Source of the DNA: Escherichia coli
GTDB lineage: Bacteria > Pseudomonadota > Gammaproteobacteria > Enterobacterales > Enterobacteriaceae
Direction: 5' to 3' (one strand)
NCBI RefSeq assembly: GCF_013315695.1
Contig: NZ_CP054353.1
Length of the DNA stretch: 64,000 nt
The first letter of the stretch is position 1; each line of letters starts with the position of its first letter. The position numbers were made by a program, and so were the translations under genes. Below, piece after piece: positions 10,075 to 49,004 of this stretch. The notes under the pieces are model-generated. The model was not told the origin of the DNA and made no database searches. It worked only from the letters and a program-made list of their open reading frames with translations.

Positions 10075-12033
10075 TTAAAATCCATCAAGTAGCTGATTGA
10101 TACCATTGCTCTCATCACAATTTATTTGCTCTAACTCAAATAAAGCACTGTCGTACTTTATTTGGGGAGTGTTTTCAAATGACAATAAAGATTCGATTAG
10201 TCTTATTTCTTTATCTTTATTTATGTCTTTAAGTGAGTCTAAAGTTAAATTGAATTTAACTTCGGGTTGTTTTCCTACTTCCATCATGATATTTGACTCC
10301 AACTCTGGATCAGTATTGAAGAATCGATGTGTCTTATGGAAATAACTAGGTTTTCTTGATTTTAAAATACTTAGTATATCCGACTTGATAGTGCTTTCCC
10401 GTGCTATCACAAGCCAATGGTTGGCAACCCCTGTGATGGTGGTAATGATGTGGGAGCCATTTTCACTTAGTTCATTAAAGGCTCTTAAGTCACCCTTGAA
10501 AAAATCATTTAGCAACTCATTTTCTTTATCTTTATCAAAAAGGTAAATTATTGAATTGCCGGCTAATGATATTTCAGCCTTGGTTTTTATAGTATCGCAA
10601 TTAAATTGCGCGGTCTCATTTTTTAATTCTTCGTAAGATGATTTTAAGTCTAAAAGCAAGCATTTTATTATACTTGATCTGAAAGATGAGTAATCAATAT
10701 CAGCACAAAGTGAAAATAAATTTCTGTGACGAATGGATTCAGGGCTGTAATATAGCTTTGTTAATATTTCTTTTTGGCGTTCTTTTGTGTCACGACAGAT
10801 AAACATAGCTGCAAAATATTCCATTAATGATTTGTGTGACCAACGAATAATAGCGCCTTCTTTGACAAATAATGGAACGGTTTCAATTAAGTCCTGAATA
10901 AAAAGAGATGGTGAAGTTGATATTCCGGGAATTTTTGAAATGATATTTTGCAATGTTATTTGCAGATCGTCTTTCGTAAACTCAATTTTACCTCCGTCTT
11001 TCAAACACCAAAAACCTAATCTCCTTAAGACCTGATGGAAGTCAGTGGAGTCTAGCTTAGAAAATTTTTCTCTAACATAACCAAGTTCTTTAGTTAAATC
11101 ATGAGACTCATACAAAGCGTCAAATACTTGGCTATAAAATAACTCTCTTTTTCTTGGTATTATCGGTTTGAATTTATATGCACAAAATAATAATGAAACA
11201 TAAAGAGGTGTGGATAAAAATTCATTTAGATTATGACCATTCTCCAGTCGTAATCCTTTAATTAATTGAGATGAAATAGGGCCACGTCCATCATATCGAC
11301 GTAATAGATCATACGCTTGATTCGTTTCTAATGGGTTGATTTTAAATCTTGAGAAACCATGTAGTTCTGATAAGAAATTATCATGACGAGAAGTTATAAT
11401 TATTTTGCTTTCTGAGAAATTATTAGCAAAGGTACTTAGTAAATTTACGATCTTGGATTTGAGTTGTTGTGGGATTTCATCTATGCCATCGAAAAGATAA
11501 ATAAAAGGGATTTTTTTGAGGCAGTTGTCTGAAATGTCTTCTCCTAAACCAAGTTGATGTTTCACCTGTAGCGCAAAATCATAATCTTTAGCACGTCGTA
11601 ATTCAATGTATATTGGAATGTATTCCTTATTAGCGATGCAATCTAAAGCAATTCTTTTCATTAGGGTGGACTTACCCATTCCTGCTGAGTCAGTGATTAA
11701 TATATGATTGAAATTATCTAATAAATCTGCATTGTCTTTTATTAGGCATGTGTATGGTTTTTTTTCATTATCGTAATAAATGCTCATTGGCTCATAAATA
11801 TCTAGAAGCTCTACTGGAGTATTTTGAAAAGCTAAGGTATTCACAAGGGAGCATTGCCCTTTCACATTTGATAGGAAACGTTCAAGATTTTTATTCAAGA
11901 AGCGTGCTGCATGTACATCTATTAAATAATTACGAACACTACTTTCTATGATAGGTAATATTTTATTCTTAATAACCTCCTTTGCCCATGGAAGGGATGC
12001 AGAGACTAATACATCAAGAGATACTGGTTGCAT
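10075..12033 (-). CDS. NACHT-type STAND NTPase (652 aa), candidate anti-phage protein in the P4 cargo slot
   Basis: Walker A GMGKST and NACHT-type Walker B LFDGIDE; long C-terminal helical region; strongly AT-rich versus flanks; sits between cos/psu and int. Confidence 0.75.
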   Translation of the reverse strand: MQPVSLDVLVSASLPWAKEVIKNKILPIIESSVRNYLIDVHAARFLNKNLERFLSNVKGQCSLVNTLAFQNTPVELLDIYEPMSIYYDNEKKPYTCLIKDNADLLDNFNHILITDSAGMGKSTLMKRIALDCIANKEYIPIYIELRRAKDYDFALQVKHQLGLGEDISDNCLKKIPFIYLFDGIDEIPQQLKSKIVNLLSTFANNFSESKIIITSRHDNFLSELHGFSRFKINPLETNQAYDLLRRYDGRGPISSQLIKGLRLENGHNLNEFLSTPLYVSLLFCAYKFKPIIPRKRELFYSQVFDALYESHDLTKELGYVREKFSKLDSTDFHQVLRRLGFWCLKDGGKIEFTKDDLQITLQNIISKIPGISTSPSLFIQDLIETVPLFVKEGAIIRWSHKSLMEYFAAMFICRDTKERQKEILTKLYYSPESIRHRNLFSLCADIDYSSFRSSIIKCLLLDLKSSYEELKNETAQFNCDTIKTKAEISLAGNSIIYLFDKDKENELLNDFFKGDLRAFNELSENGSHIITTITGVANHWLVIARESTIKSDILSILKSRKPSYFHKTHRFFNTDPELESNIMMEVGKQPEVKFNLTLDSLKDINKDKEIRLIESLLSFENTPQIKYDSALFELEQINCDESNGINQLLDGF

Positions 12034-12036
12034 GAA

Positions 12037-13245
12037 TTATACCTTATTTTCTACGTTTAAATTTTTGACCTTAAGTCCCCACCAGTTCATTAAATCGATT
12101 CTGGTATGTAAATATGTTGAGCGGTTATATGCTCTTCTAACTTCGTTTTTGTCAGAGTGCGCTAAAGCAGCTTCAATGACATCTGGGTTAAAACCTCTTT
12201 CATTCATGGCTGTACTTGCTATTGAACGTAGACCATGAGCAACCAGCTTCCCGCCATAACCAATACGTTTTAAAGCAGCATTAGCAGTTTGGCTATTCAT
12301 TGGCTGTTTTGGGTCATTTCTACTGGGAAAAACATGTTCACGATGAGCACTGATTGGTTTCATTACCTCCAGAATCTCTATTGCCTGAGGTGATAAAGGA
12401 ACAATGTGTTCCCGCTTAGCTTTCATCCGTTCGGCTGGAATAGTCCAGAGCTTTGCGTCAAGATCGATCTCTGCCCAACGAGCACCGGAAGCTTCAGAAG
12501 GGCGCACAAGGGTCAGAAGCTGCCACTCAATTAGACAGCGAGTCGAAACAGAGAGGTTCGACATCACCAAAGAGCGCATGAGTTTTGGTAATTCTTCAGG
12601 TCGTAGCGTTGGCATGTGTTGCTTTTTGGGTTTCTCAAATGCCATACCAATACCAGATGCCGGGTTTGCATCAATCAGGCCAGTGTTGACGGCGTAGATC
12701 ATGATTTCGTTAATACGCTGCACCAGTCGACGTACAGTCTCTAGCGCCCCACGTGCTTTGATTGGCTCAAGGGTTTCAACTAGTGTTCGGGCTTTGATTT
12801 GCTGGACAGGGATCTCCCCGATGACAGGGAATACGTCTTTTTCCAGTGACCGCCATATATCTTTAGCGTAATCGGGTGTAACGCTTTTGCTTTTGAGCTG
12901 GAACCAGTTAGCGGCGACCGTTGAAAAAATACTGTCCAGAGCGATTTGCTGCTGTTCCTCTGCAACTTCGGCCTGAATTTGCGGGTCAATTCCGTTGGCT
13001 AACAAAGCAAGGTAATCCGCTCTTAACCGTCGAGCATCAGCAAGTGAAAGGGCGGGGAAAGCACCAAGCCCCATCATTGTCCGCTGTTTTGTTGCTGGAC
13101 GTTGATAACGGAAACGCCACAACTTCTTACCGTTCGTTTTAACGAGCAGAAAAAGACCATCGCCATCATGTAACGTTAGATCCTTTTCTAACGCTCTAGC
13201 GCGCAGAACTTCTGTGCTGGTCAGGGGGCGTGTCGTTCTTGCCAC
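12037..13245 (-). CDS. int: P4-type tyrosine integrase (402 aa)
   Basis: P4 integrase-like N-terminus (...GLFLLV...G.K.WRFRY) and C-terminal catalytic region (...HGLR...RAYNRS); adjacent to ssrA-derived att core. Confidence 0.9.
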   Translation of the reverse strand: MARTTRPLTSTEVLRARALEKDLTLHDGDGLFLLVKTNGKKLWRFRYQRPATKQRTMMGLGAFPALSLADARRLRADYLALLANGIDPQIQAEVAEEQQQIALDSIFSTVAANWFQLKSKSVTPDYAKDIWRSLEKDVFPVIGEIPVQQIKARTLVETLEPIKARGALETVRRLVQRINEIMIYAVNTGLIDANPASGIGMAFEKPKKQHMPTLRPEELPKLMRSLVMSNLSVSTRCLIEWQLLTLVRPSEASGARWAEIDLDAKLWTIPAERMKAKREHIVPLSPQAIEILEVMKPISAHREHVFPSRNDPKQPMNSQTANAALKRIGYGGKLVAHGLRSIASTAMNERGFNPDVIEAALAHSDKNEVRRAYNRSTYLHTRIDLMNWWGLKVKNLNVENKV

Positions 13246-13366
13246 TGTGGCCGCTCCTTCATTAATTGGTATACGCGTTTAGGTAAACATCCTACCGTAT
13301 ACCTAAACGTATACCAATAATCACTGGATTTAGCTGGATATCCTCGGACAACGGTAGACACAAAAA

Positions 13367-13394
13367 AGCCCGCAGAGCTTGTGCCATGCGGGCT
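13367..13394 (-). terminator. Rho-independent terminator next to the internal att core
   Basis: agcccgca/tgcgggct hairpin with T-run on the minus strand, ~35 bp beyond the tmRNA-3'-end copy. Confidence 0.5.
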
Positions 13395-13429
13395 TTCAGG
13401 ATTTCTCCGGACGTATCCGGAAGAGCAAG

Positions 13430-13474
13430 TGGTGGAGCTGGCGGGAGTTGAACCCGCGTCCGAAATTCCTACAT
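13430..13474. repeat. Internal att core: 45-bp copy of the ssrA 3' end (junction between P4-like element and P2-like prophage)
   Basis: tggtggagctggcgggagttgaacccgcgtccgaaattcctacat is identical to 48642-48686. Confidence 0.9.
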
Positions 13475-13589
13475 ACCATTTTCACTATAACAAAAACATT
13501 AACTTGCGTTTAAAATCATCAAGTTAGTATTATCTTATGTTTGTCCGTTTTACTCATTTTTAATGCTCTGTCGCCAATCTGTCGCCACA

Positions 13590-14240
13590 TTATCCGCTGC
13601 TTGAGTTGAAATCTGTGGGTTTACGGAGATTAGATCTTATGGTTTTTTCAGCGATACGAATAGTCGAAAATTTATGCAGGTTCATCAGTGCTATACAAAT
13701 CCCAAGTGCAAAAAAGTAGCTGGACATTCCTAATCTTTGCATATCAGTAAGTTTATTAATTTTCTCTAAAATATGTTGGGTTACTAATCCTTCGTATACA
13801 AAAGGTATGGAAGTTATAAAACCGCCAATAAAATAGAATGTTAAGCTTATCAGCTTTATAGATTTTCTATATATCCAAAAGCGATATCTTTTTTTTGTCC
13901 ATTTAAATATTTGTTTTTCACTACTAATAGAAATTAGTTTTTGACACTTGCTATAGTTATCAATGTCATTAACTGGATCGTTAACACCTAAAAGAATCTC
14001 TCTCTGTTCTGGAGTTAGGTTCTTATCTTTTGTTATTGCAGCAATACCATAATTATATGCAACTTTCTTGATTTTGGGATCTTCAGTATTCTTATATAGA
14101 TTGTATGCAAACTCGCTAATGTTTTTGCGCGAGTTGAAAATCTTATCTTTGGGGAAAACCCAGCCGGATCTTACCGCGAGCATCTGTATGATCGGGGTAA
14201 TTATCGCGACAGAATACTTAATTATCTCGTTTATGTTCAT
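13590..14240 (-). CDS. Hypothetical membrane protein (216 aa), cargo gene between attL and int
   Basis: AT-rich; soluble N-terminal ~125 aa followed by two hydrophobic helices; 14 bp downstream of int in the same orientation. Confidence 0.6.
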   Translation of the reverse strand: MNINEIIKYSVAIITPIIQMLAVRSGWVFPKDKIFNSRKNISEFAYNLYKNTEDPKIKKVAYNYGIAAITKDKNLTPEQREILLGVNDPVNDIDNYSKCQKLISISSEKQIFKWTKKRYRFWIYRKSIKLISLTFYFIGGFITSIPFVYEGLVTQHILEKINKLTDMQRLGMSSYFFALGICIALMNLHKFSTIRIAEKTIRSNLRKPTDFNSSSG

Positions 14241-14254
14241 GATCCATTGTTTAC

Positions 14255-15271
14255 TTAAATTAAGTTATAAAGAGGGTTTTTTGTTACTGCATCCTCCAGG
14301 TGGTCTGGAGAGAAGTGTGCATAAATCATCGTCATTTTAATATCTGAGTGCCCTAAAATATCACGTAAAACGAGTATGTTCCCACCGTTCATCATAAAAT
14401 GGCTGGCAAATGTATGGCGCAGGACGTGGGTGCATTGGCCTTCCGGTAGTTCAATACCGGCCCGTTTTACCGCCCGTTCAAAGGCTTTTCTGCATGGTGT
14501 GAATAATTTCCCTCGGTTTTTGGGTAGCTCGTTGTACAGATCCTGAGATATCGGTACGGTACGGTTTTTTTTACCCTTGGTCTTTGTATAGGTAATCCGG
14601 TATTTCGATAGTTGATGGCCCTGCAGGTTTTCAGCTTCACTCCAACGAGCACCGGTTGCTAGGCATATTTTTGCAATCATTAGCAGACTGGGGCTTTGAG
14701 AATCAGCACAGGCATCCAGCAGACGTTTAATTTCCTCCGGGGTTAGGAACGCCAGTTCACCCTCCGTAATTTTAAATGTTGGAAGCCCGGCAAGCGGGTT
14801 GGGGGCTGACCAGTGGCCCAGCTTTTTCAGTGTACCAAAAACAGATGATAGGTTGCGCTGTTCAAGGTTTACCGTGCGGGGCTTAACGGGTGACATGAAC
14901 GAGCCGTCTTCATTTTGGACCTCCCCCTTTAATCTGGCTTCCCGATATTTTGTGAAATCACCTGCTGTCAGCTCAGAGGCGATGGGATCGCCTAGACCAT
15001 TACAGATAATTCTAAGTTTCGCCATCAGGCGTTTGGGGTCTGCGAGTGTTTGACCATATAGGGAATACCACTGCTCAATCACTTCTGATAATCGCCGCCG
15101 ATCTTCCTTCTCACCAAGCCATGGCTTTTTGTTTACTTCGTTCATGGTGAAGTTTTCGAATGCTATGGCTTCGCCTTTCGTGGCAAATTGCTTACGCACG
15201 CGCTTGCCATTGCGTCCATTGGGATAGCACTCACACAACCATTTTCCGTTCGGCTGTTTTCTGATGGTCAT
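14255..15271 (-). CDS. int: P2-type tyrosine integrase (338 aa)
   Basis: Catalytic region motifs (...ARWSE...HVLRHTFASHF...LGHSDIKMTMIYAH); position next to att and repressor. Confidence 0.9.
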   Translation of the reverse strand: MTIRKQPNGKWLCECYPNGRNGKRVRKQFATKGEAIAFENFTMNEVNKKPWLGEKEDRRRLSEVIEQWYSLYGQTLADPKRLMAKLRIICNGLGDPIASELTAGDFTKYREARLKGEVQNEDGSFMSPVKPRTVNLEQRNLSSVFGTLKKLGHWSAPNPLAGLPTFKITEGELAFLTPEEIKRLLDACADSQSPSLLMIAKICLATGARWSEAENLQGHQLSKYRITYTKTKGKKNRTVPISQDLYNELPKNRGKLFTPCRKAFERAVKRAGIELPEGQCTHVLRHTFASHFMMNGGNILVLRDILGHSDIKMTMIYAHFSPDHLEDAVTKNPLYNLI

Positions 15272-15272
15272 A

Positions 15273-15905
15273 TCAAAGGCTCTTAATGATTTTCAGTGCA
15301 CGGCCTACTACCTCAATGTCATCCAGGCCACACTCAAACGATGAATCATCCTGATGCACTACTAATCTGTTTCCCGGGAGTCGAGTCAATTTAACAATGC
15401 TTTTTATCCCGTCGATATCGACTAACCACATACCATTCACTGGTGGTGTTTGGTTGCGATCTATTAAATAAGAATCACCAGAAGTAGTCACCAGCAGTAG
15501 GTTGCTTGAGTCTGAGGGGAGTATGCTGCTATCAATGATTGCTTTTCCAGCATCGACCAATAAACCACCGTTGAGAGTCGCCTTGTCAATTTCAGGAGAT
15601 ACTAGTTCAGAAAGAGGTACAACCTTGCTGGAGTTCACGGAATTGATATTTTTTTTAGGTTCAATGTTTGGACCTGGCTCCCCCTGTCCGGTGGTTAGCC
15701 ACAGTAAAGAAACTCCTGTTTCCAAGGCGCACTGAATCACCCACTCTGCAGGAAAACTATCTCTTAAGTATCTGTTTGCCATGGTGCTTTTTGATGCGCC
15801 TAAGTGATCGCAAAGTTGCTGTCTGGACTTGAAATCATAGGCTGCCATTAGTCTATGGATAGCTTCTCTTCCCCCTGTATTCTCTCCAGCCTTTACCTGT
15901 ATCAT
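15273..15905 (-). CDS. CI-type immunity repressor (210 aa, HTH N-terminus)
   Basis: Divergent from the apl/cox-like gene, adjacent to int; size closer to phage 186 CI than P2 C. Confidence 0.7.
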   Translation of the reverse strand: MIQVKAGENTGGREAIHRLMAAYDFKSRQQLCDHLGASKSTMANRYLRDSFPAEWVIQCALETGVSLLWLTTGQGEPGPNIEPKKNINSVNSSKVVPLSELVSPEIDKATLNGGLLVDAGKAIIDSSILPSDSSNLLLVTTSGDSYLIDRNQTPPVNGMWLVDIDGIKSIVKLTRLPGNRLVVHQDDSSFECGLDDIEVVGRALKIIKSL

Positions 15906-16024
15906 TTTTTAATCCTGTTGACGTATCAAATATTGGATCGTAGTATCTCGATGTATCAAATATTGAATCAATTAAAACGAGATAAAACGACGTAAACCAA
16001 ACCTTAATCGGGAGATACTGCACT

Positions 16025-16267
16025 ATGAGCACTGATATTTCAATTCGTGTACCAAAAGAGATGGCTACGCCTGCAGAGTTCGCGGAATGGGAAGGTATCT
16101 CCCGCGGCTCCGTGTATCAAAAAATTCACCATGGTCAGCTTGCTAAATACATGGTCAAGAAAGAAAAAAATAAAGGCCGCGTAAACCTTCGTTATCTGAT
16201 GTACAAAACTGATCAGGTCCGTGAATCCCTCGGTCATTCCAACTTCCGCGTCATTGTTGGTAAGTAA
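16025..16267 (+). CDS. Apl/Cox-like excisionase and early regulator (80 aa)
   Basis: First gene of the rightward early operon divergent from the repressor. Confidence 0.6.
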   Translation: MSTDISIRVPKEMATPAEFAEWEGISRGSVYQKIHHGQLAKYMVKKEKNKGRVNLRYLMYKTDQVRESLGHSNFRVIVGK

Positions 16268-16299
16268 GTTCAATTATGGGAACTTTCTAAGGGGGCACC

Positions 16300-16809
16300 A
16301 TGTTTGATTACAAGATTTCCAAACATCCGCATTTCGATGAAGCCTGTAGGGCTTTTGCACTGCGTCACAACCTGGTGCAACTGGCAGAACGTGCAGGCAT
16401 GAATGTACAGATTCTGCGGAACAAGCTGAACCCAGCTCAGCCTCATTTATTAACCGCACCAGAAATCTGGCTGCTTACCGATCTGACTGAAGATTCAACG
16501 CTGGTAGATGGTTTTCTGGCACAGATTCATTGTCTGCCATGTGTACCGATTAATGAGGTGGCAAAAGAGAAACTGCCACATTACGTCATGAGTGCAACCG
16601 CAGAGATCGGGCGTGTTGCTGCAGGTGCGGTATCTGGCGATGTAAAAACCTGTGCCGGTCGTCGTGATGCTATCAGCAGCATTAACTCTGTAACACGACT
16701 GATGGCGCTGGCGGCTGTTTCATTGCAGGCCCGTTTACAGGCTAATCCTGCGATGGCGAGTGCAGTTGATACCGTGACTGGCCTCGGTGCTTCATTCGGT
16801 TTGCTGTGA
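16300..16809 (+). CDS. CII-like lysogeny establishment regulator (169 aa)
   Basis: Second early gene; length equals phage 186 CII. Confidence 0.55.
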
Positions 16810-18399: not shown

Positions 18400-19253
18400 G
18401 CACCATCCTGAAATGGGCAGGTAATAAAACTGCCATTATGTCCGAACTGAAAAAACATCTTCCTGCTGGCCCGCGACTGGTTGAACCTTTCGCGGGTTCC
18501 TGTGCTGTGATGATGGAGACGGATTACCCCAGCTATCTTGTTGCGGATATTAATCCTGATTTAATCAACCTCTATAAAAAGGTTGCTGCTGATTGTGAAT
18601 CGTTTATATCTCGCGCCAGAGTTTTATTTGAGATCGCAAACAGGGAGGTGGCTTATTACAACATAAGGCAGGAGTTTAATTACTCAACTGAAATTACTGA
18701 TTTCATGAAAGCGGTATATTTCCTGTATCTAAATCGTCACGGTTACCGTGGTTTATGTCGCTATAACAAGAGCGGGCATTTCAACATTCCCTACGGTAAT
18801 TATAAAAATCCGTATTTCCCTGAAAAAGAAATTCGCGCATTTGCAGAAAAAGCCCAGCGAGCAACGTTTATCTGCGCCAGCTTTGATGAAACGCTGGCGA
18901 TGTTGAAAGCGGGGGATGTGGTGTATTGCGATCCGCCGTATGACGGTACGTTTTCCGGCTATCACACTGACGGCTTCACTGAAGATGACCAGTATCACCT
19001 GGCATCTGTTCTTGAACATCGGTCATCAGAAGGACATCCGGTCATTGTTTCTAACAGTGACACATCCCTGATCCGTTCGCTGTATCGCAATTTTACTCAC
19101 CACTACATCAAGGCAAAACGCAGCATCGGTGTGGCAGCTGGCGAGGGTAAATCAGCAACAGAAATCATTGCTGTTTCCGGGCCGCGCTGCTGGGTGGGAT
19201 TTGATTATTCGCGTGGCGTGGATAGTTCTGCCGTGTACGGAGTACGTGCATGA
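18396..19253 (+). CDS. DNA adenine methyltransferase (Dam-like, 285 aa)
   Basis: N-terminal SAM-binding region (LKWAGNK...EPFAGS) and DPPY catalytic motif. Confidence 0.85.
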
Positions 19254-21664
19254 GTCATGCCGATATGAACAACTGCTGCGGCTTTAACGAAGCTGCCGCA
19301 TCGTTCTCATGGAACAGCCCGAAAAAGGCCATTAACCCTTATCTGGACCCGGCGGAAGTTGCGCCGGTTTCTACGCTTTCAAACCTGATCACTCTGTACG
19401 CTGCCGATAACGAGCAGGAACAGCTGCGCCGTGAGGCGCTGAGTGATCAGGTCTGGGAGCGTTATTTCTTTAATGAATCCCGTGATCCTGTCCAGCGCGA
19501 AATGGAGCAGGATAAGCTCATTAGTCGGGCAAAGCTGGCGCATGAGCAGCAGCGTTTTAACCCGGACATGGTCATTCTGGCAGACGTCAGCGCCCAGCCC
19601 TCCCATATCAGCAAGCCGCTGATGCAACGTATTGAATACTTCAGCAGCCTTGGCAGGCCAAAGGCTTATTCCCGCTATTTGCGTGAGACGATTAAGCCAT
19701 GTCTGGAACGGCTGGAGCATGTACGCGACAGTCAGCTATCCACATCTTTTCGCTTTATGGCAAGCCATGAAGGGCTGGACGGCCTGCTGATTCTGCCTGA
19801 AATGAGTCAGGATCAGGTGAAACGCCTGTCCACCCTTGTTGCTGCGCATATGAGCATGTGCCTTGATGCAGCTTGTGGCGATTTGTATGCCACCGATGAC
19901 GTTAAGCCAGAAGAAATCCGCAAGACATGGGAAAAGGTGGCAGCAGAAACCCTGCGACTGGATGTCATACCGCCTGCGTTTGAGCAACTCCGCCGGAAAA
20001 GAAACCGCCGTAAACCCGTGCCATATGAACTCATTCCGGGTTCGCTGGCGCGTATGTTGTGCGCCGATTGGTGGTACCGGAAATTATGGAAGATGCGTTG
20101 CGAATGGCGGGAAGAGCAGTTGCGTGCTGTTTGCCTGGTCAGCAAAAAAGCATCTCCCTATGTCAGCTATGAAGCCGTGATGCATAAACGTGAGCAGCGC
20201 CGTAAGTCGCTGGAGTTTTTCCGTTCTCATGAACTGGTGAACGAAGACGGCGACACGCTGGACATGGAGGATGTGGTAAACGCCAGCAGCAGCAACCCTG
20301 CGCATCGCCGCAATGAGATGATGGCCTGTGTTAAAGGTCTGGAGCTTATCGCGGAAATGCGCGGTGACTGCGCCGTTTTCTACACCATCACCTGTCCGTC
20401 ACGTTTCCATTCCACGCTAAATAACGGCAGGCCCAACCCGACCTGGACAAATACGACGGTAAGACAAAGCAGTGATTATCTGGTCGGCATGTTTGCTGCA
20501 TTTCGTAAGGCGATGCACAAAGCCGGATTGCGCTGGTATGGCGTGCGGGTGGCTGAGCCGCATCATGACGGTACAGTTCACTGGCACCTGTTGTGTTTTA
20601 TGCGCAAAAAAGATCGCCGCACCATTACTGCTTTGTTGCGTAAGTTTGCCATTCGTGAAGACCGCGAGGAGCTGGGTAATAACACGGGACCACGCTTTAA
20701 GTCTGAGCTGATAAACCCGCGCAAAGGTACGCCAACAAGCTACATCGCGAAATACATCAGTAAGAACATTGACGGGCGTGGTCTGGCTGGCGAGATCAGC
20801 AAGGAAACGGGTAAATCCCTGCGTGATAACGCTGAATACGTTAATGCCTGGGCGTCTCTGCATCGTGTTCAGCAATTCCGCTTCTTTGGCATTCCGGGGC
20901 GTCAGGCTTACCGTGAACTGCGATTGCTGGCTGGTCAGGCGGCAAGGCAACAGGGGGACAAAAAAGCAGGTGCGCCGGTACTGGATAACCCGCGCCTTGA
21001 TGCAATCCTGGCTGCTGCTGATGCTGGTTGTTTTGCCACCTACATCATGAAGCAGGGCGGCGTACTGGTTCCCCGCAAATATCACCTCATCAGAACTGCT
21101 TATGAAATCAACGAAGAACCGACCGCATATGGCGATCACGGTATTCGTATTTATGGCATCTGGTCACCCATTGCAGAGGGCAAGATCTGCACTCATGCGG
21201 TGAAGTGGAAAATGGTTCGTAAGGCCGTTGACGTTCAGGAGGCGGCAGCCGACCAGGGCGCTTGCGCCCCTTGGACTCGTGGCAATAACTGTCCCCTTGC
21301 TGAAAATTTGTACCAACAAGGGAAAGACAAATCAGCTGATGGAGATACCAGAACGGATATCACCCGCATGGATGACAAGGAGTTGCACGATTACCTGCAC
21401 AGTATGAGCAAAAAAGAGCGCCGGGAACTGGCAGCAAGGTTACGCCTGGTGAAACCGAAACGGCGTAAAGACTACAAACAGCGAATTACAGATCATCAGC
21501 GACAGCAGCTCGTGTATGAACTGAAGTCCAGGGGATTTGATGGCAGCGAGAAAGAGGTCGATTTACTGCTTCGCGGCGGCAGTATTCCGTCAGGAGCAGG
21601 CCTGCGTATCTTCTATCGGAACCAGCGTTTGCAGGAAGATGATAAGTGGCGAAACCTGTATTAA
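19250..21664 (+). CDS. Replication initiation protein A (rolling-circle nicking endonuclease), 804 aa
   Basis: Size and position of P2/186 gene A at the end of the early operon. Confidence 0.85.
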
Positions 21665-21816: not shown

Positions 21817-22005
21817 ATGCAGGACTATTTTTTGGAGTCTTTGAAGCTCCAGCGCATTGATTTTTTTCTTAAGCTTGTAGCGGCTAGTGAGTGTAGTGAT
21901 GAAGAGAAGGGGCTGGCTTTGCAGTGGGTTTCTGAACTGACAGATGAACTTATGGCAAAAATCAGAACCCACGAATACAACCGCTCAATGGATGTCATCA
22001 GTTGA
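21817..22005 (+). CDS. Small SOS-controlled protein (62 aa), possible Tum-like antirepressor
   Basis: First ORF downstream of the LexA box, aggagg RBS. Confidence 0.4.
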   Translation: MQDYFLESLKLQRIDFFLKLVAASECSDEEKGLALQWVSELTDELMAKIRTHEYNRSMDVIS

Positions 22006-22015
22006 GGTGACTTTT

Positions 22016-22249
22016 ATGCGCATTGAAATAATGATCGATAAAGAGCAGAAGATTAGCCAGTCTACCCTGGACGCCTTTGAATCCGAGCTTTACCGCAATC
22101 TGCGCCCCCTGTATCCCAAAACGGTAATTCGTATCCGTAAAGGTAGCTCTAACGGTGTGGAACTGACCGGACTGCAACTGGACGAAGAAAGGAAACAAGT
22201 AATGAAAATTATGCAGAAGGTGTGGGAAGACGACAGCTGGCTGCATTAA
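22016..22249 (+). CDS. DinI-family protein (77 aa)
   Basis: MRIEIMIDKE...ELYRNL...VWEDDSW resembles E. coli DinI (MRIEVTIAK...WESADDW). Confidence 0.75.
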   Translation: MRIEIMIDKEQKISQSTLDAFESELYRNLRPLYPKTVIRIRKGSSNGVELTGLQLDEERKQVMKIMQKVWEDDSWLH

Positions 22250-22519
22250 GAAACGTTGCTGGCGTCTGAACTTGCTTCTGGCGTCAGCAAGGTTGAACAA
22301 CGAGCTATGCGAGGCGTTAGTGTCAATTTGTTACCTTAACCACTATATATGCCAGGAAATTAACAGTTCTTAAGAAACCGCTTGCATGATCGAGCGCATT
22401 GAACTTAAGTTTAAGTAACGAAATCAACAGATGATATTGTTGTCTAAATTTTAAAGATAATCTGTTGAGGTTGTAGGCGTCGGAGTGTAGACTTCCGCGC
22501 CATGTGAAAAGGGGGAGTT

Positions 22520-22735
22520 ATGTCAAGCATCGCCGCATTTAGCCTGGGTAACCCAGTTGAACGTCTGGCAAGGGTTCTTAAAGAGAACCAGGACAAACTC
22601 AATCTTAGTAAAGATGGTTTTGTGTCCGTAGACTTGTCTAACAAAAGAGCAATGGATGCCATCAAGGCACAGATGGATAAGCTTGAAGGCATCAAAACGA
22701 GCACTGTAAAAGAGAAAACTAATAGAACCAGATAA
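22520..22735 (+). CDS. Hypothetical small protein (71 aa), first gene of a two-gene cargo module
   Basis: Strong RBS (gggggag); stop overlaps the next start (ATAATGG). Confidence 0.5.
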   Translation: MSSIAAFSLGNPVERLARVLKENQDKLNLSKDGFVSVDLSNKRAMDAIKAQMDKLEGIKTSTVKEKTNRTR

Positions 22736-23577: not shown

Positions 23578-23694
23578 CTATGCTGCATGAGATCGCATGA
23601 TCGTTTGAGGATCGTTTTTGCTAAGGCCCGCCAGAACTGGCGGGCTTTTGCGTAGATCATGCACCTGCATGAAAACTACTACATAAAGCGGGCA

Positions 23695-23713
23695 GGCGTG
23701 GCGGGGATACGAG
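23695..23713. other. Putative cos site of the P2/186-like prophage
   Basis: ggcgtggcggggatacgag shares the GGCG(A/T)GGCGGGG core with the P4-like cos at 10022. Confidence 0.5.
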
Positions 23714-23903
23714 CGCGCGTTGGGATGATAATGTCCTTTCGAATGTAAGGCAGAGTATGTTATTTTTACTCTTGGTTGCTTTGTATAGTTCGATAAAATT
23801 ATTATATATTTAGTATGTGATATATTGATGTCGATGGTGACTGGTTGTGGATGAAGCTAAAAACAAAAAGGCATGATGCGATTTATTGAAGGAATGATGA
23901 TTA

Positions 23904-24320
23904 ATGATTGATGTCATTGGTAATAAATACGTTGTTGCTTTAATTTTTCCATTGTTGATGATTCTATGTGGGGCTTTTGTAAAAAAACTTGCCAGATCCT
24001 CTGGTTGGCAAAAGAGTGATTTTTACTTTGGGAATGAGTTGATATTATCGACAATTGGTGCATCATTGTTGAATTTATATGATTTGACTAAAACTGTTCA
24101 AACAGTAACCACGGTTAACCAAGTGGTTAATCAGTACATTGGAACTACTAGCTTTCTTGCCTTCTCTCTTTTTGTATTACTGGGGATCATGTCTTTTCAT
24201 CAAGATTGGGAAGGGCGAACAGGAAATCCAAAAGGTCAAATTTGGGTTTTATGTATTGGGTGTAATTTAGTCGGCATATTATTTTTTGCTTCCTTTGTTT
24301 TGTGGATTAAGGGTGTGTAA
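23904..24320 (+). CDS. Hypothetical small integral membrane protein (138 aa, ~4 TM helices)
   Basis: AT-rich; four hydrophobic segments; immediately followed by the TIR-like gene. Confidence 0.6.
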   Translation: MIDVIGNKYVVALIFPLLMILCGAFVKKLARSSGWQKSDFYFGNELILSTIGASLLNLYDLTKTVQTVTTVNQVVNQYIGTTSFLAFSLFVLLGIMSFHQDWEGRTGNPKGQIWVLCIGCNLVGILFFASFVLWIKGV

Positions 24321-24923
24321 ATGAAAAAAAATACTCTTTATATTATTTCAATTGCATTGGCTGTTGTTGGGTTTCTTATGGCTCTTATTCCACGGCTCCC
24401 ATATTTATTTCAAGGAGTTAATGATGAGATTATCATCTCCGTTATTGGATTATCTTTTGCCTATTCTGGCCTGAGTTTGATTGTGTTAATGAAATTAAGG
24501 GAAAGAAGACTAAAGGCCGTTAAAAAAGGAAAGCAAATATTTCTAATGTATCCCGTACAAGAAAAAGATAAGGCCCGTCAAATAACTTGTAAGCTTAATG
24601 AGTTAGGTTTTGATGTATGGTTTGATGAAAATAACATATTGCCCGGGCAGATTATTGAAAAGCAAATTAATCAGGCTATAGACAATAGCGCTGCGGCTAT
24701 ATTGCTTCTGTCTAATGAAGATATGGAGTCATATATAAGAAAGGAGGTAGAGGGCTTTCTCCGTAAAGCTACGGTAAAAGATGAAAACTATGTTCCTATA
24801 ATTCCTGTGATAATTGGTGATGCTGAATTGCCTGCGATGCTCAAAAACATCAAGTCTGTAAACTATGAGGATGAAAAATTAATTGATAAGCTCAATTTGT
24901 CATTGAAGTCCATTCTTGGTTGA
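24321..24923 (+). CDS. Membrane-anchored TIR-like domain protein (200 aa: 2 TM helices plus TIR-like domain)
   Basis: C-terminal region follows the TIR pattern: KQIFLMY...LNELGFDVWFDENNILPGQII...INQAIDNSAAAILLLSNEDMESYIRKEV...YVPIIPVII. Confidence 0.6.
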   Translation: MKKNTLYIISIALAVVGFLMALIPRLPYLFQGVNDEIIISVIGLSFAYSGLSLIVLMKLRERRLKAVKKGKQIFLMYPVQEKDKARQITCKLNELGFDVWFDENNILPGQIIEKQINQAIDNSAAAILLLSNEDMESYIRKEVEGFLRKATVKDENYVPIIPVIIGDAELPAMLKNIKSVNYEDEKLIDKLNLSLKSILG

Positions 24924-24955: not shown

Positions 24956-25987
24956 TCAAGTAAGCTGATAACTATCGAATGTTACTATTTCCTCATCTAG
25001 CCATATGTTTATTTCCTGTAATCTTTTTTGCAACGGTAATAACTCATTACGAACAAATACTTTACTAGCCTTCTCCACATCCCCAAACCCCCCAACATTA
25101 TTCGGCATAATCCCCATCATCTGTGGCGGAACGCGATGTGCTGCCATCATGTCATCCCGGCTCACGTTCTTGATATTTAGAAACTCATCCTTCGCCGCAA
25201 CTTCTGACAAAGGGATGATCTGAAGGCCGTCCTTTTTGCCGTTAGGCGAGTACATAAACAGGTTGCGGAAGTTACCCGGACCTTTGGCACTTTTCATTGC
25301 ATTGCGGAGGTTGTTCACGTCCTCCTGGTTCTGCGCAGCATCGGTCATGTACATGATGAAGCCTGCATGACTACCGTTAATGTAATACTTGCGGCGGAAC
25401 AGCGTGGCGGACTCATTGAGCAGGGCGGACGGAATGGCAGAAAGATAGCCGGGCAGGCCGTAGATCTCCTGGTTAATGTCCGGTTCCATCAGATGAAAAA
25501 TGCTGCCTTTCGTGAACTGATATGGCTGCGTGGTCATACCGTATTGCACAAACCAGTAGGTATCCAGGTCTAACCCGCGTCGGGTGTATTTTGCCAGGGC
25601 AGGTTCAAGGGCGATAACTTCACCGAAGCGGTTCGTGCGTTTCTCCAGGTAGGCGTTACCAAATACCAGATAGTCCTGCACAAAACGCGAAAAAGCCTGC
25701 TGGCTGAGCAGCGGGTGAGGGATGTAGGTGCTGGTCAGAATGTTGCACTTTACTGCAATCGGGGAACTATGATGAACGGCAGCGCGGAAGGTGCGCGCCA
25801 GTCCGTCAAAGCTGACGGGCGGCTCATACCAGCGGTCCATCTGTACGCATTCCACATAATCCAGCAGTTCTCGGCGGTCCAGAACAGGAACGGGATCGCC
25901 GAAGCTGAATGCTTCGGCTGTAGTTTGACTTTTAAGCTGGATCTGTTTCGTCGCCGCAGCGCGGTTCTTCTTACTCTTTCCCATCAA
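24956..25987 (-). CDS. Portal protein (P2 Q-like), 343 aa
   Basis: Size, orientation and pairing with the terminase ATPase gene as in P2 Q-P. Confidence 0.9.
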   Translation of the reverse strand: MMGKSKKNRAAATKQIQLKSQTTAEAFSFGDPVPVLDRRELLDYVECVQMDRWYEPPVSFDGLARTFRAAVHHSSPIAVKCNILTSTYIPHPLLSQQAFSRFVQDYLVFGNAYLEKRTNRFGEVIALEPALAKYTRRGLDLDTYWFVQYGMTTQPYQFTKGSIFHLMEPDINQEIYGLPGYLSAIPSALLNESATLFRRKYYINGSHAGFIMYMTDAAQNQEDVNNLRNAMKSAKGPGNFRNLFMYSPNGKKDGLQIIPLSEVAAKDEFLNIKNVSRDDMMAAHRVPPQMMGIMPNNVGGFGDVEKASKVFVRNELLPLQKRLQEINIWLDEEIVTFDSYQLT

Positions 25988-46742: not shown

Positions 46743-46810
46743 ATGGTTCTCAATATTGATATTTTGTGTATCATTGCATTGATTATGATAGCAAAGGTAG
46801 GGATCTGGAT

Positions 46811-47029
46811 ATGATGAATTGTCCAAAGTGTGGTCATGCGGCGCACACAAGGAGCAGTTTTCAAGTAACGGAAAGCACCAAAGAACGTTACTGCCAGTGC
46901 CAAAATATTAACTGCGGGAGCACTTTTGTTACCCATGAAACAGTGGTCCGGTTTATTGTGACACCTGCAGTGATTGCCACAGCCCCTCCACATCCATTGC
47001 CAGATGGTCAGGGCCATATGAATTTTTAA
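46811..47029 (+). CDS. ogr: Ogr late-gene transcriptional activator (zinc finger, 72 aa)
   Basis: MMNCPKCGHAAHTRSS...CQCQNINC... matches P2 Ogr. Confidence 0.85.
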   Translation: MMNCPKCGHAAHTRSSFQVTESTKERYCQCQNINCGSTFVTHETVVRFIVTPAVIATAPPHPLPDGQGHMNF

Positions 47030-47269: not shown

Positions 47270-48346
47270 TTAATAGAATGTTTCTACTAAAGCGTTTACA
47301 TGTTCTCTAGCCTCGCGATAACGCTCTCTTACAACGTTGATAATTTCACCGTTTGGCATTTCATAATGAGTTTGAGCAGGAAGTTTGAAAAGAGGAATTC
47401 CCAAACTTGCAGAAACTTTCCCTGAAGTATGAAAATCTTTAACTTCAGAAAGATAGGCCGCCTCCCATTCATTTAAGTTATTGATTTCACGATATCGCTC
47501 CGTGAATAGTTCTGGGAAGTTCTGATATTGTGTAAAAGCAAAAGCACAAAGGGATTCTTTGATTGAATCATAAGCTCTGGCAACACCAAGATTAGACGTA
47601 AAGTTATTGAAAACAAAGCGATCTAACTTAGGTAATGTAAGATTATTATTCACAACTTGGCTATGAAAAGTGACAAACTTTTCTGCATAGGTTTGTGCAG
47701 CAGAAGAGGGATAATGGCCATAAAGAAGCATCATTATTCCTTTCATCCCTTCTAATGAACTGTAATCAGCCATCATAGGGACGACCAGTCTATCTGAAGA
47801 TAGTAGAGCCATTTGGGTGTAGATAGAAAAACTTGGATTACAGTCAATAAAGACAACCATATCATCGTAATCATCAATATCATGTTCTAGAGTACATAGT
47901 CGACGAAATGCTGTCATATACTCTTTCCATGCGAACCTGTTAGCTGGACTGATAACTGCATAGTTCAGTGCAAGAGTAAGGGACTCGAGGAATGAATCAC
48001 CGGCGATGAGAAACAAATTATCGCTGATTTCATCATTATATTGGTTTACTGCTACTTTGAAAGAACGTCGAATACTGGTGAAATTTGAATGGCCATCTAA
48101 AAGCCAGTCCAGAAACCCTACGACATTTTTGCGTGTTCGTGAAGATTGTAGCTCTTGATTAGTATTGTACCCACGATCACCTCCTCCAAGCAGGTATTGA
48201 GAAATGTTTGCTTGCGGACACAAATCTATTACTAGTACCTGTGTGCTGGGATTTTCTTCTGCATACTGTGCAGCAATGTTGAAACCAAGTGTTGTTTTTC
48301 CAACACCGCCTTTGTTGTTATACATTGCATAAATCTTAACTGCCAT
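47270..48346 (-). CDS. ParA/MinD-like P-loop ATPase with ~150-aa C-terminal extension (358 aa), cargo gene between ogr and attR
   Basis: Deviant Walker A NKGGVGKTT, A' motif VLVIDLCPQANIS, Walker B VVFIDCNPS; AT-rich. Confidence 0.7.
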   Translation of the reverse strand: MAVKIYAMYNNKGGVGKTTLGFNIAAQYAEENPSTQVLVIDLCPQANISQYLLGGGDRGYNTNQELQSSRTRKNVVGFLDWLLDGHSNFTSIRRSFKVAVNQYNDEISDNLFLIAGDSFLESLTLALNYAVISPANRFAWKEYMTAFRRLCTLEHDIDDYDDMVVFIDCNPSFSIYTQMALLSSDRLVVPMMADYSSLEGMKGIMMLLYGHYPSSAAQTYAEKFVTFHSQVVNNNLTLPKLDRFVFNNFTSNLGVARAYDSIKESLCAFAFTQYQNFPELFTERYREINNLNEWEAAYLSEVKDFHTSGKVSASLGIPLFKLPAQTHYEMPNGEIINVVRERYREAREHVNALVETFY

Positions 48347-48641
48347 GTGTATTTCACCCGAGGTTGAATAAAAGCCTACTACATCGCTATTTTACCATTC
48401 AATTTTATCATTAGCAGATTCCAATGAAGAAGATACTTCTGGTTTATCTAATGAAAATTGTGAAGTAAAAGTAGGATACTTCATTCTTCTGCAGTGAGGG
48501 GGGCGTGGATAACATTATAATTTCTTGTTGTATAGCCTTTTCGGGAAAGAGCAGACAAGATTTACATAAAACTCTGTCGCCATTTTGCCGCCACTTCCAA
48601 AGAAAAAGGGGCTACGCTTTCACGTAACCCCTTGATTTATT

Positions 48642-48686
48642 TGGTGGAGCTGGCGGGAGTTGAACCCGCGTCCGAAATTCCTACAT
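48642..48686. repeat. attR core: 3' end of ssrA, identical to 13430-13474
   Basis: 45-bp exact direct repeat. Confidence 0.9.
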
Positions 48687-49004
48687 CCTCGGTACTACAT
48701 GCTTAGTCAGTCTTTACATTCGCTTGCCAGCTGCGGACGGACACGCCACTAACAAACTAGCCTGATTAAGTTTTAACGCTTCAACCCCAGGCAGGGCTTC
48801 CACGCGATCTCTTTTGGGTTTGACCTCTCTTGATCCCCGTCCTAAGAGCGGAGGCTAGGGAGAGAGGGCTCTAAGCAGGTTATTAAGCTGCTAAAGCGTA
48901 GTTTTCGTCGTTTGCGACTATTTTTTGCGGCTTTTTACGAGGCCAACCGCCCCTCGGCATGCACCTTGGGTTTCGCAAATCCCGTCGAATCCAGAATCAG
49001 CCCC
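48642..49004 (-). ncRNA. ssrA: tmRNA (SsrA RNA), 363 nt
   Basis: Reverse complement begins GGGGCTGATTCTGGATTCGACGGG and ends GGGTTCAACTCCCGCCAGCTCCACCA; tag ORF region (GCAAACGACGAAAACTACGCTTTAGCAGCTTAA) present. Confidence 0.97.

What the first reader, a model, noticed from the sequence alone, without database searches (positions are those of the whole stretch)
13590..14240. Cargo membrane protein between attL and the P2-type integrase
A 216-aa AT-rich ORF is inserted between the att core and int, 14 bp downstream of int in the same orientation and probably co-transcribed. It has a soluble N-terminal region and two C-terminal hydrophobic helices. Together with the ParA-like gene it flanks the phage attachment site on both sides, the typical position of lysogenic-conversion or superinfection-exclusion morons.
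Basis: inference. Interest (0 to 1): 0.5.

Follow-up and report, generated by a model that had tools for sequence, protein, structure and literature searches.

The report
Uncharacterised membrane cargo gene beside prophage integrase
A 186-type prophage inserted in the tmRNA gene carries, in the swappable one-gene slot right after its integrase, a protein with three predicted membrane helices from an unstudied family that elsewhere sits in phage and bacterial defence hotspots, making it a reasonable but untested candidate anti-phage gene.

Summary
The ORF is real: 13590..14240 (-), 216 aa, 33% GC. It starts 14 bp after the int stop and ends 2 bp before paired Int arm-type repeats, 115 bp from the 45-bp ssrA att core. 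One detail is wrong: the protein has three hydrophobic helices, not two. The predicted topology is N-out TM1, a ~100-aa cytoplasmic domain, a TM2-TM3 hairpin and a cytoplasmic tail.

The ORF is the whole variable cassette. Related E. coli prophages hold other AT-rich single genes there, and phage 186 holds Orf69, annotated inside the cI-int lysogenic operon.

The family is small and uncharacterised. It matches phrog_21256 but nothing in Pfam, NCBIfam, PADLOC or PDB. The AF2 model is confident (pLDDT 92.6) and has no fold match in PDB or BFVD.

Homologs lie after cI-int in 186-like prophages, in the main P2 GpA-portal hotspot, in an ICE, beside RM/PDC genes, and beside Rosmer and BrxR.

Best reading: a lysogen-expressed, self-contained inner-membrane anti-phage or exclusion protein. 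The mechanism is inferred, not shown. It is a new family in a known kind of locus, of moderate interest.

The parts
13590..14240 (-). The 216-aa cargo ORF, stop codon included. It has three predicted TM helices (about 8-27, 127-149 and 173-192), a conserved cytoplasmic domain (28-126) and a basic C-terminal helix.
   Evidence: It matches phrog_21256 at E=2.7e-69.
14241..14254 (-). The 14-bp spacer between the int stop and the ORF ATG (GTAAACAATGGATC). It contains only a weak GGA Shine-Dalgarno-like element.
   Evidence: Sequence read directly. Phage 186 has the same 14-bp spacing between int and Orf69.
14255..15271 (-). The 186/P2-type tyrosine integrase, 338 aa.
   Evidence: Pfam Int_N 1.4e-28 and Phage_integrase 5e-25.
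15273..15905 (-). The 186-type CI repressor, first gene of the presumed cI-int-ORF lysogenic operon.
   Evidence: Pfam Phage_CI_repr 5.5e-31 and Phage_CI_C 9.2e-28. Operon structure is taken by analogy with U32222.
13569..13587 (+). Two TGTCGCCA repeats 11 bp apart. They are probably Int arm-type binding sites. They abut the ORF stop codon and mark the att-side edge of the cassette.
   Evidence: They resemble the 186 arm-type consensus YAYCGCCAYTY given in U32222.
13430..13474 (.). The attL core: a 45-bp duplicate of the ssrA 3' end.
   Evidence: Exact direct repeat with 48642-48686. Rfam gives a partial tmRNA match.
48642..48686 (.). The attR core, inside the intact ssrA gene (48642..49004, -).
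48575..48593 (+). A second pair of arm-type-like repeats (TGTCGCCA and TGCCGCCA, 11 bp apart) on the attR side.
13366..13380 (-). A terminator-like hairpin downstream of the ssrA fragment. It is the first terminator-like site a cI-int-ORF transcript would meet in the prophage state.
   Evidence: That it terminates this transcript is inference.
47270..48346 (-). The ParA-like ATPase gene (358 aa) between ogr (46766..47029) and attR. It occupies the accessory slot at the other end of the prophage.
   Evidence: Pfam AAA_31 3.3e-22 and CbiA 5.1e-9. Ogr_Delta match. No PADLOC hit.

Best explanation
The ORF is a horizontally exchanged one-gene cassette. It occupies the accessory slot of a 186-type (P2-family) prophage, between the int stop codon and the Int arm-type sites of attP. 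It is most likely transcribed with cI and int from the lysogenic promoters, so the protein would be present in lysogens.

The protein is an inner-membrane protein with three TM helices. The N-terminus faces the periplasm. The ~100-aa helical domain, the strongly basic stretch before TM2 and the C-terminal helix face the cytoplasm.

The mechanism I commit to is a self-contained anti-phage defence protein of the abortive-infection type. The conserved cytoplasmic domain senses a phage component or an infection-induced change. The TM helices then compromise the inner membrane, which stops the competing phage.

Shown here: gene anatomy, cassette boundaries, family membership, the three hydrophobic segments, charge bias, conservation pattern, and the genomic neighbourhoods of homologs.

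Inferred: expression in lysogens, membrane topology, anti-phage role, and the sensing and membrane-damage steps.

My probability that it is some kind of anti-phage or anti-MGE protection (abortive or exclusion) is about 0.55-0.6. For the abortive sensor-effector version specifically it is about 0.3-0.35.
For: Cassette and slot:
- Homology to prophages with other cargo stops at 13587 and resumes at 14251-14273.
- GC is 33%. The alternative cargos in the slot are also AT-rich single genes on the int strand, at 34-36% GC.
- In 186 the slot holds Orf69 inside the annotated lysogenic operon.
- The integrase-att interval is described as a minor P2 defence hotspot (10.64898/2026.02.27.708500).

Expression:
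- Spacing to int is 14 bp here, 10 bp in E. coli C21 and 1 bp in Klebsiella.
- No promoter-like site lies on the ORF's strand inside int.
- The repressor and integrase of a 186-like Salmonella prophage are transcribed in lysogens (PMC7067206).

Membrane protein with a cytoplasmic functional end:
- Three hydrophobic segments.
- K+R excess on the proposed cytoplasmic side in 48 of 48 homologs.
- Conservation is highest at residues 61-90 and lowest in the 10-23-aa periplasmic loop, which also varies in length.
- The AF2 model is confident, pLDDT 92.6 and pTM 0.79.

Defence association of homologs:
- Kosakonia: between GpA and Ogr/portal, the main P2 hotspot (PMC9122126).
- Burkholderia: after a methylase/DUF2357-PDDEXK/Vsr cluster and flanked by PADLOC candidates PDC-M26A and PDC-M11A.
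- A metagenomic contig: divergent from a BrxR regulator, next to Rosmer RmrT/RmrA, with a TniQ-like and an AAA_22 gene upstream.
- Lonsdalea: ICE cargo.

Self-contained:
- No partner gene is conserved across 12 context look-ups.
- Two alleles only 53% identical occupy the same slot in E. coli, next to int genes that are far more alike (int protein 93-100% identical).
Against: - There is no experimental evidence of any kind.
- No similarity to any PADLOC v2 model at E<=1, any Pfam or NCBIfam family, any solved structure or any BFVD model.
- Guilt by association is weak for a single small gene.
- Two homologs are solitary chromosomal genes among housekeeping genes. One lies next to a DUF6708 gene, a family reported as a T6SS immunity protein.
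- Nothing distinguishes an abortive effector from an injection blocker.
- Topology rests on the positive-inside rule and hydropathy only. No dedicated predictor was available.
- The family is rare in E. coli: 30 of 5,426 complete genomes.
Confidence: 0.35

Rival explanations
1. It is a superinfection or entry-exclusion protein. It sits in the inner membrane and blocks translocation of incoming DNA, from phages and possibly from conjugative elements. It would do this by interfering with the inner-membrane step of genome entry, without killing the cell.
For: - It is an inner-membrane protein, probably expressed with cI and int in lysogens.
- A homolog lies inside the T4SS gene cluster of an ICE. 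From general knowledge, entry-exclusion genes of conjugative elements are small inner-membrane proteins.
- The most variable part is the short periplasmic loop, which could determine specificity.
- Two alleles 53% identical sit in the same slot.
- From my own knowledge, unchecked here: the P2-related vibriophage K139 carries the exclusion gene glo near its immunity region.
Against: - No PHROG family annotated as exclusion matched. Only phrog_21256 (unknown function) and a non-significant phrog_20550 did.
- Only about 7 + 20 residues are predicted to be exposed to the periplasm, and the conserved part is cytoplasmic.
- Homologs beside RM, Rosmer and BrxR genes, and as solitary chromosomal genes, are unusual places for phage-specific exclusion genes.
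Confidence: 0.25
2. It is a lysogenic-conversion or immunity function unrelated to phages. An example would be a membrane immunity protein against membrane-targeting bacteriocins or T6SS effectors, or another envelope modifier that benefits the lysogen.
For: - One homolog lies next to a DUF6708 gene. A DUF6708 protein is listed as T6SS immunity protein Tsi3a in Stenotrophomonas rhizophila (PMC13340143).
- The protein is small and polytopic in the membrane, like the immunity proteins of pore-forming colicins (general knowledge).
- Some homologs are solitary chromosomal genes.
Against: - Only 1 of 48 members gave a marginal hit to Colicin-K immunity, E=0.024.
- No toxin or effector gene is adjacent in any of the contexts examined.
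- The DUF6708 context is a single 2.6-kb metagenomic contig.
- Most informative contexts are phage hotspots or defence islands.
Confidence: 0.12
3. It serves the phage's own life cycle. As a product of the lysogenic operon it could modulate integration or excision, lysogeny maintenance, induction or host physiology, rather than acting against competitors.
For: - It is tightly linked to cI-int in 21 of 22 IMG/VR loci and in all E. coli and Klebsiella loci examined.
- It is nearly translationally coupled to int in Klebsiella, with a 1-bp gap.
Against: - The slot is filled by unrelated genes, or by the unrelated Orf69, in close relatives with 84-88% identical int DNA. The function is therefore dispensable and replaceable.
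- Homologs occur outside phages, in an ICE, an RM island and chromosomal sites.
- The gene is retained in a ~3.8-kb prophage remnant in E. coli LR-33 that cannot make phage.
Confidence: 0.08
4. It is an ExbB/TolQ-like stator subunit or decoy. It would engage or poison the Ton or Tol proton-motive-force machines, which many phages and colicins use for entry.
For: - Size and predicted topology match ExbB and TolQ, which from general knowledge are N-out with a large cytoplasmic domain between TM1 and TM2, a TM2-TM3 hairpin and a cytoplasmic tail (compare).
- ExbB, TolQ and ZorA chains recur among the weak structural matches.
- There is a conserved Pro in TM2, P146.
Against: - hhalign of the family profile gives probability 0.3% against E. 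coli TolQ and 2.2% against ExbB.
- No member hits Pfam MotA_ExbB at E<=0.1.
- No ExbD/TolR-like partner gene is present in the slot.
Confidence: 0.05

Closest known systems
Phage 186 Orf69 (CP69) slot, last gene of the pL/pE lysogenic operon (GenBank U32222)
   Same: The position is identical. Both genes start 14 bp downstream of int on the same strand and are followed directly by the Int arm-type sites and attP.
   Different: The proteins are unrelated: BLASTP E=42. Orf69 is an 83-aa, 51% GC, LAPDGTYVGG-repeat protein with no TM segment. 186 integrates in a tRNA-Ile gene, this phage in ssrA.
Defence hotspots of P2-like phages (Rousset et al. 2022, PMC9122126; 2026 preprint 10.64898/2026.02.27.708500)
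   Same: It is a variable single-locus cargo flanked by conserved phage genes. The integrase-att interval is explicitly listed as a minor hotspot holding 3% of P2 defence systems. A homolog sits in the main GpA-portal hotspot.
   Different: This protein family is not among the recognised systems: PADLOC gave 0 hits. No phenotype is known.
Single-protein or TM-effector abortive-infection systems (for example lambda RexB, and the 2TM effectors of CBASS, Pycsar and retrons)
   Same: It is a small membrane protein encoded by a prophage or defence island with a cytoplasmic domain, and it stands alone in most contexts.
   Different: There is no sequence or fold similarity. The helix arrangement differs, with TM1 separated from TM2-TM3 by the soluble domain. 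No membrane damage has been demonstrated.
Superinfection-exclusion membrane proteins (P22 SieA, T4 Imm, HK97 gp15, K139 Glo) and conjugative entry-exclusion proteins (F TraS, SXT Eex)
   Same: It is predicted to be an inner-membrane product, probably expressed in lysogens, of a temperate phage. A homolog lies in an ICE transfer region.
   Different: No homology was detected in PHROGs. It has very little periplasmic exposure. It is also found in non-phage defence islands.
ExbB/TolQ (MotA/ExbB/TolQ family, Pfam PF01618)
   Same: Length is similar at about 216-244 aa. The three-TM topology is shared, with a large cytoplasmic domain between TM1 and TM2.
   Different: Profile comparison is negative. 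There is no Pfam hit, no significant structural match and no ExbD/TolR-like partner.

Membership tests
phrog_21256 (PHROGs family of unknown function) | Significant full-length match to the family HMM. | tested here: met
   E=2.7e-69, residues 5-207 aligned to profile positions 7-209 of 222.
int-att accessory slot of 186/P2-type prophages | Lies between the int stop codon and the Int arm-type sites or att core, on the int strand. | tested here: met
   ORF at 13590-14240, int stop at 14255-14257, repeats at 13569-13587, core at 13430-13474. The layout matches 186.
int-att accessory slot of 186/P2-type prophages | Content varies among prophages that share the flanking sequences. | tested here: met
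   Homology breaks at 13587 and 14251-14273. Alternative cargos are a 331-aa HNH protein, a 419-aa unknown, a 309-aa unknown, a 222-aa paralogous allele and Orf69.
int-att accessory slot of 186/P2-type prophages | Transcribed as part of the cI-int lysogenic operon. | not testable with these tools
   Only indirect evidence: the 186 annotation, intergenic gaps of 1-14 bp, no internal promoter-like site, and cI/int transcribed in a 186-like Salmonella lysogen.
Known anti-phage defence systems (PADLOC-DB v2.0.0) | Match to any defence-protein HMM. | tested here: not met
   0 families at E<=1.
Known anti-phage defence systems (defence-island association criterion) | Homologs enriched next to known defence genes. 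| tested here: inconclusive
   Of 10 informative contexts, 4 are in defence hotspots or islands and several are in prophage or ICE cargo positions. Two are solitary among housekeeping genes. No statistical test was done.
Characterised superinfection-exclusion proteins (as represented in PHROGs) | Sequence similarity to a family annotated as exclusion. | tested here: not met
   Only phrog_21256 (unknown function) and a non-significant phrog_20550 hit at E<=1. tblastn against 50,697 phage records found nothing.
MotA/ExbB/TolQ family | Three-TM N-out topology with a large cytoplasmic domain between TM1 and TM2. | tested here: met
   Hydropathy and positive-inside bias in 48 of 48 sequences. This is inferred, not experimental.
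MotA/ExbB/TolQ family | Sequence or profile similarity to PF01618, TolQ or ExbB. | tested here: not met
   No Pfam hit in 48 members. hhalign probability 0.3% against TolQ and 2.2% against ExbB.
MotA/ExbB/TolQ family | Adjacent ExbD/TolR/MotB-like partner gene. | tested here: not met
   The cassette contains only this ORF. No such neighbour appears in any context.
MotA/ExbB/TolQ family | Significant fold match. | tested here: not met
Pore-forming colicin immunity proteins | Match to the immunity-protein Pfam families. | tested here: not met
   1 of 48 members hits PF17500 at E=0.024, and the query does not hit it.

The most novel reading that the evidence does not exclude
The family is a new, self-sufficient inner-membrane immunity module with a previously undescribed fold and an ExbB/TolQ-like three-helix topology. 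It would guard the cytoplasmic face of the membrane against incoming foreign DNA in general. That would explain its presence in prophage hotspots, an ICE transfer region and defence islands, with the variable periplasmic loop or allelic divergence setting specificity.
Probability: 0.12. Interest if true: 0.7.

Novelty: new member of a known kind. Interest (0 to 1): 0.4.

Why it matters
If the protein protects lysogens, it would add a new one-gene, membrane-based family to the anti-phage repertoire. It would also give experimental support to the integrase-att interval of 186/P2-type phages as a defence slot.

The cassette is sharply bounded by the int stop codon on one side and the arm-type Int sites on the other. 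This makes it a clean natural example of how single accessory genes are swapped by recombination in conserved flanks. The slot could be mined across ssrA-integrating prophages for further candidates.

The gene is short, stands alone and has a confident structural model, so it is cheap to test.

Tried and rejected
Searches that found nothing for the query or family:
- Pfam, NCBIfam and PADLOC scans of the query and of 48 family members gave nothing above noise.
- PDB sequence searches with the family profile and with the isolated cytoplasmic domain returned only designed helical proteins at E>=0.01.
- Foldseek against PDB and BFVD gave no hit at E<=0.001.
- AFDB50 was not available on the machine.
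- tblastn against 50,697 phage records and 72,556 plasmids found no match.
- Literature searches for accessions and for phrog_21256 returned nothing.
- Rfam on 13000-16500 found only the tmRNA fragment and a far sub-threshold IsrM hit.

Ideas considered and rejected:
- ExbB/TolQ homology was suggested by the topology and by recurring weak structural hits. It was rejected after hhalign gave 0.3% and 2.2%.
- Similarity to 186 Orf69 was rejected.
- The secondary-structure order in the cytoplasmic domain (three helices, then a beta-hairpin) looked like a winged helix. No fold search supports this, so I make no such claim.
- A cleaved signal peptide, which would put the domain in the periplasm, was considered. 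I disfavour it because the basic residues flank the proposed cytoplasmic sides in 48 of 48 sequences.
- The shorter 197-aa RefSeq start was rejected because Met20 is not conserved.

Technical failures:
- The search for related loci with the deep alignment A2 failed because it has no conserved block. It worked with A1.

Full report
**1. What is in the sequence**

The ORF at 13590..14240 (minus strand) is real. It is 216 aa with an ATG start.

The locus layout is as follows:
- The ORF lies immediately downstream of a 338-aa tyrosine integrase at 14255..15271. That integrase has Int_N (1.4e-28) and Phage_integrase (5e-25) domains.
- The integrase follows a 186-type CI repressor at 15273..15905, with Phage_CI_repr and Phage_CI_C domains. 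All three genes are on the minus strand.
- The int stop codon and the ORF ATG are separated by 14 bp.
- ARAGORN finds an intact tmRNA gene at 48642..49004. Its last 45 bp are repeated exactly at 13430-13474.
- The prophage therefore spans about 13475-48641 and is integrated in ssrA.
- The ORF is 33.0% GC, against 47.2% for int and 50.3% for the window.

The protein has three hydrophobic segments, not two. They lie at about residues 5-29, 127-153 and 170-195. The N-terminal segment is conserved in character across the family.

RefSeq annotates a 197-aa product in E. coli LR-33 that starts at Met20. That Met is present in only 3 of 48 homologs, so the 216-aa form is the supported one.

**2. The ORF is exactly a replaceable cassette**

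I compared window 13201-15400 with E. coli prophages that share the flanks but carry other genes. Homology on the att side ends at 13587. On the int side it resumes at 14251-14273.

Position 13587 is the last base of the second of two TGTCGCCA repeats, at 13569 and 13580, spaced 11 bp apart. A matching pair lies near attR, at 48575 and 48586. They resemble the Int arm-type consensus YAYCGCCAYTY annotated in phage 186.

The variable unit is therefore the ORF plus a few bases, bounded by the arm-type sites and the int stop codon.

The same slot holds other contents in related phages:
- A 331-aa HNH protein, a 419-aa unknown and a 309-aa unknown in other E. coli. All are 34-36% GC and on the int strand.
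- A 222-aa paralogous allele, 53% identical to this protein, in 29 complete E. coli genomes.
- The unrelated 83-aa repeat protein Orf69 in phage 186 itself.

Some IMG/VR prophages stack two cargos in the slot. One of them keeps a fragment of an int 3' end in front of the homolog. This is consistent with exchange by recombination in the conserved flanks.

**3. Expression (inferred)**

The GenBank record of 186 places Orf69, also 14 bp after int, inside the lysogenic operon driven by pL and pE. The predicted terminator of that operon lies beyond attP.

Further indirect evidence:
- The homolog starts 1 bp after int in Klebsiella and 10 bp after int in E. coli C21.
- No promoter-like site was found on the ORF's strand inside int.
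- In a 186-like Salmonella prophage, the repressor and integrase are transcribed under all conditions tested (PMC7067206).

The protein is therefore probably made in lysogens. I could not test this.

**4. The protein and its family**

Database results for the query:
- It matches phrog_21256, a family of unknown function, at E=2.7e-69.
- It matches nothing in Pfam, PADLOC or NCBIfam.
- The word-indexed search found 28 relatives in E. coli, Salmonella, Cronobacter and Klebsiella. All are annotated as hypothetical.
- The exhaustive search found 55 representatives at 50% clustering, most 200-250 aa long.

AlphaFold2 gave pLDDT 68.5 with the shallow alignment. With the 48-sequence alignment it gave pLDDT 92.6 and pTM 0.79. 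The model's elements in order are:
- helix 3-26 (TM1);
- helices 30-52, 55-70, 77-84 and 89-98, followed by a beta-hairpin at 103-114;
- a long helix 122-152 (a basic stretch followed by TM2);
- a short helix 155-162;
- helix 166-203 (TM3 and tail).

The evidence for topology is indirect. Lys and Arg cluster after TM1, before TM2 and after TM3 in 48 of 48 sequences. This supports an N-out, C-in topology with the ~100-aa domain in the cytoplasm.

Conservation is highest at residues 61-90, in the motif YGIAALTKD..LT..QR..LL. It is lowest in the 10-23-residue periplasmic loop.

No solved or viral predicted structure resembles the model:
- Foldseek against PDB and BFVD gave no hit at E<=0.001.
- AFDB could not be searched.

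ExbB, TolQ and ZorA chains recur among the weak hits, and ExbB and TolQ share the three-TM topology. However, hhalign gives probability 0.3% against TolQ and 2.2% against ExbB. No family member hits MotA_ExbB in Pfam, and no ExbD-like partner gene is present. I treat this as a resemblance in topology only.

**5. Where homologs live**

In 186-like prophages:
- The identical protein always follows cI-int in E. coli (8 places shown).
- The Klebsiella homolog, 52% identical, does the same.
- In IMG/VR, 21 of 22 loci have the gene downstream of cI-int. One has it after a different 390-aa integrase.
- Rahnella and Acerihabitans homologs end the cI-side operon of 186-like prophages.

Elsewhere:
- A Kosakonia homolog lies between GpA and Ogr/portal. 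This is the main P2 defence hotspot (PMC9122126).
- A Lonsdalea homolog is opposite-strand cargo inside an ICE T4SS cluster.
- A Burkholderia homolog follows a methylase / DUF2357-PDDEXK / Vsr cluster. It is flanked by PADLOC candidates PDC-M26A and PDC-M11A.
- A metagenomic homolog is divergent from a BrxR regulator and next to a Rosmer RmrT/RmrA pair, with a TniQ-like and an AAA_22 gene upstream.
- Two homologs are solitary chromosomal genes.
- One lies beside a DUF6708 gene, a family reported as a T6SS immunity protein.

No partner gene is conserved across these contexts.

A 2026 preprint states that the integrase-att interval of P2-like phages is a minor defence hotspot, holding 3% of P2 systems.

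The family is rare in E. coli, present in 30 of 5,426 complete genomes. It is absent from the phage-isolate and plasmid collections searched.

**6. Interpretation**

The cargo or moron reading is well supported. The function is not established.

The combination of features points to protection of the lysogen against competing phages or other mobile elements:
- probable expression in lysogens;
- a stand-alone gene;
- a polytopic inner-membrane protein with a conserved cytoplasmic domain;
- deep allelic divergence within a conserved slot;
- recurrence in phage hotspots, an ICE and defence islands.

I put this at about 0.55-0.6 overall. I favour an abortive, sensor-plus-membrane-effector mechanism at about 0.3-0.35. 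The reasons are the cytoplasmic conservation and the defence-island contexts.

Entry or superinfection exclusion is close behind at about 0.25.

Lesser rivals are:
- immunity against membrane-targeting toxins (0.12);
- a role in the phage's own life cycle (0.08);
- an ExbB/TolQ-like decoy (0.05).

**7. Novelty and interest**

The locus type is known, and the slot is already occupied by Orf69 in the 186 record. The protein family is uncharacterised and has no detectable relatives by sequence or fold. I class it as a new member of a known kind: hotspot cargo and a candidate single-gene defence.

Interest is moderate. The candidate is cheap to test, but such unannotated hotspot genes are numerous and nothing here is mechanistically surprising yet.

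Noticed in passing
window 10075-13245 (-): A second integrative island sits in tandem just outside attL. It has a P4-type integrase (12037..13245, 402 aa) followed by a 652-aa STAND NTPase with NACHT and SNaCT5 domains. The NTPase gives only weak Avs2 and mad8 hits in PADLOC. It is likely a bacterial NACHT defence gene on a satellite-like island that uses the same ssrA site.
   Followed up: partly
window 21944-24923 (+): The main P2 hotspot, between GpA (19250..21664) and the portal (24956..25987), carries several genes: a DinI-like gene, unknown 280-aa and 138-aa ORFs, and a 200-aa TIR-domain protein. The TIR protein scores TIR_2 3.6e-17 and gives ThsB-like and SAVED-TIR PADLOC hits. The 138-aa ORF and the TIR ORF abut (23904..24320 and 24321..24923) and may form a two-gene system.
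   Followed up: partly
window 47270-48346 (-): A lone 358-aa ParA/MinD-like ATPase lies between ogr and attR. It has no PADLOC match. It is a second accessory slot at the other prophage end, and its function was not examined.
   Followed up: partly
L001 (E. coli LR-33, NZ_AP027523.1 1225151-1229412): The only complete E. coli genome with the identical gene carries it in a ~3.8-kb prophage remnant. The remnant has the ORF, int, cI, an apl-like gene and a truncated cII, next to ssrA. The cargo has therefore outlived the phage. RefSeq calls the gene from Met20 (197 aa), which is probably a mis-called start.
   Followed up: partly
L031 6001-12609: On a metagenomic contig the homolog is the first of four co-oriented genes. 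It is followed by genes of 519 aa, 275 aa and over 1,190 aa with no Pfam or PADLOC match. The group is divergent from a BrxR-type regulator, next to a Rosmer pair, and has a TniQ-like gene and an AAA_22 ATPase gene upstream. It could be an undescribed multi-gene system in which this family is one component.
   Followed up: no
L027 1711-2640 and L058 4336-5322: An alternative slot cargo of 309-328 aa has an N-terminal hydrophobic region and a weak PADLOC '2TM effector' hit (8.1e-5). In L058 it is stacked upstream of the focal family, separated by a fragment of an integrase 3' end.
   Followed up: partly
L026 1706-2965: Another slot cargo is a 419-aa AT-rich protein with no Pfam or PADLOC match. 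By eye it contains a RES-like stretch, but this was not tested.
   Followed up: no
L033 1158-1409 (phage 186 Orf69): Orf69 of phage 186 is made almost entirely of about eight LAPDGTYVGG-type repeats. Its function is not annotated in the record.
   Followed up: no
window 13362-13467 (-): A far sub-threshold Rfam hit to IsrM sRNA (31 bits against a gathering score of 376) overlaps the ssrA fragment and its terminator. It is probably a shared ssrA-flank sequence and not an sRNA gene.
   Followed up: no
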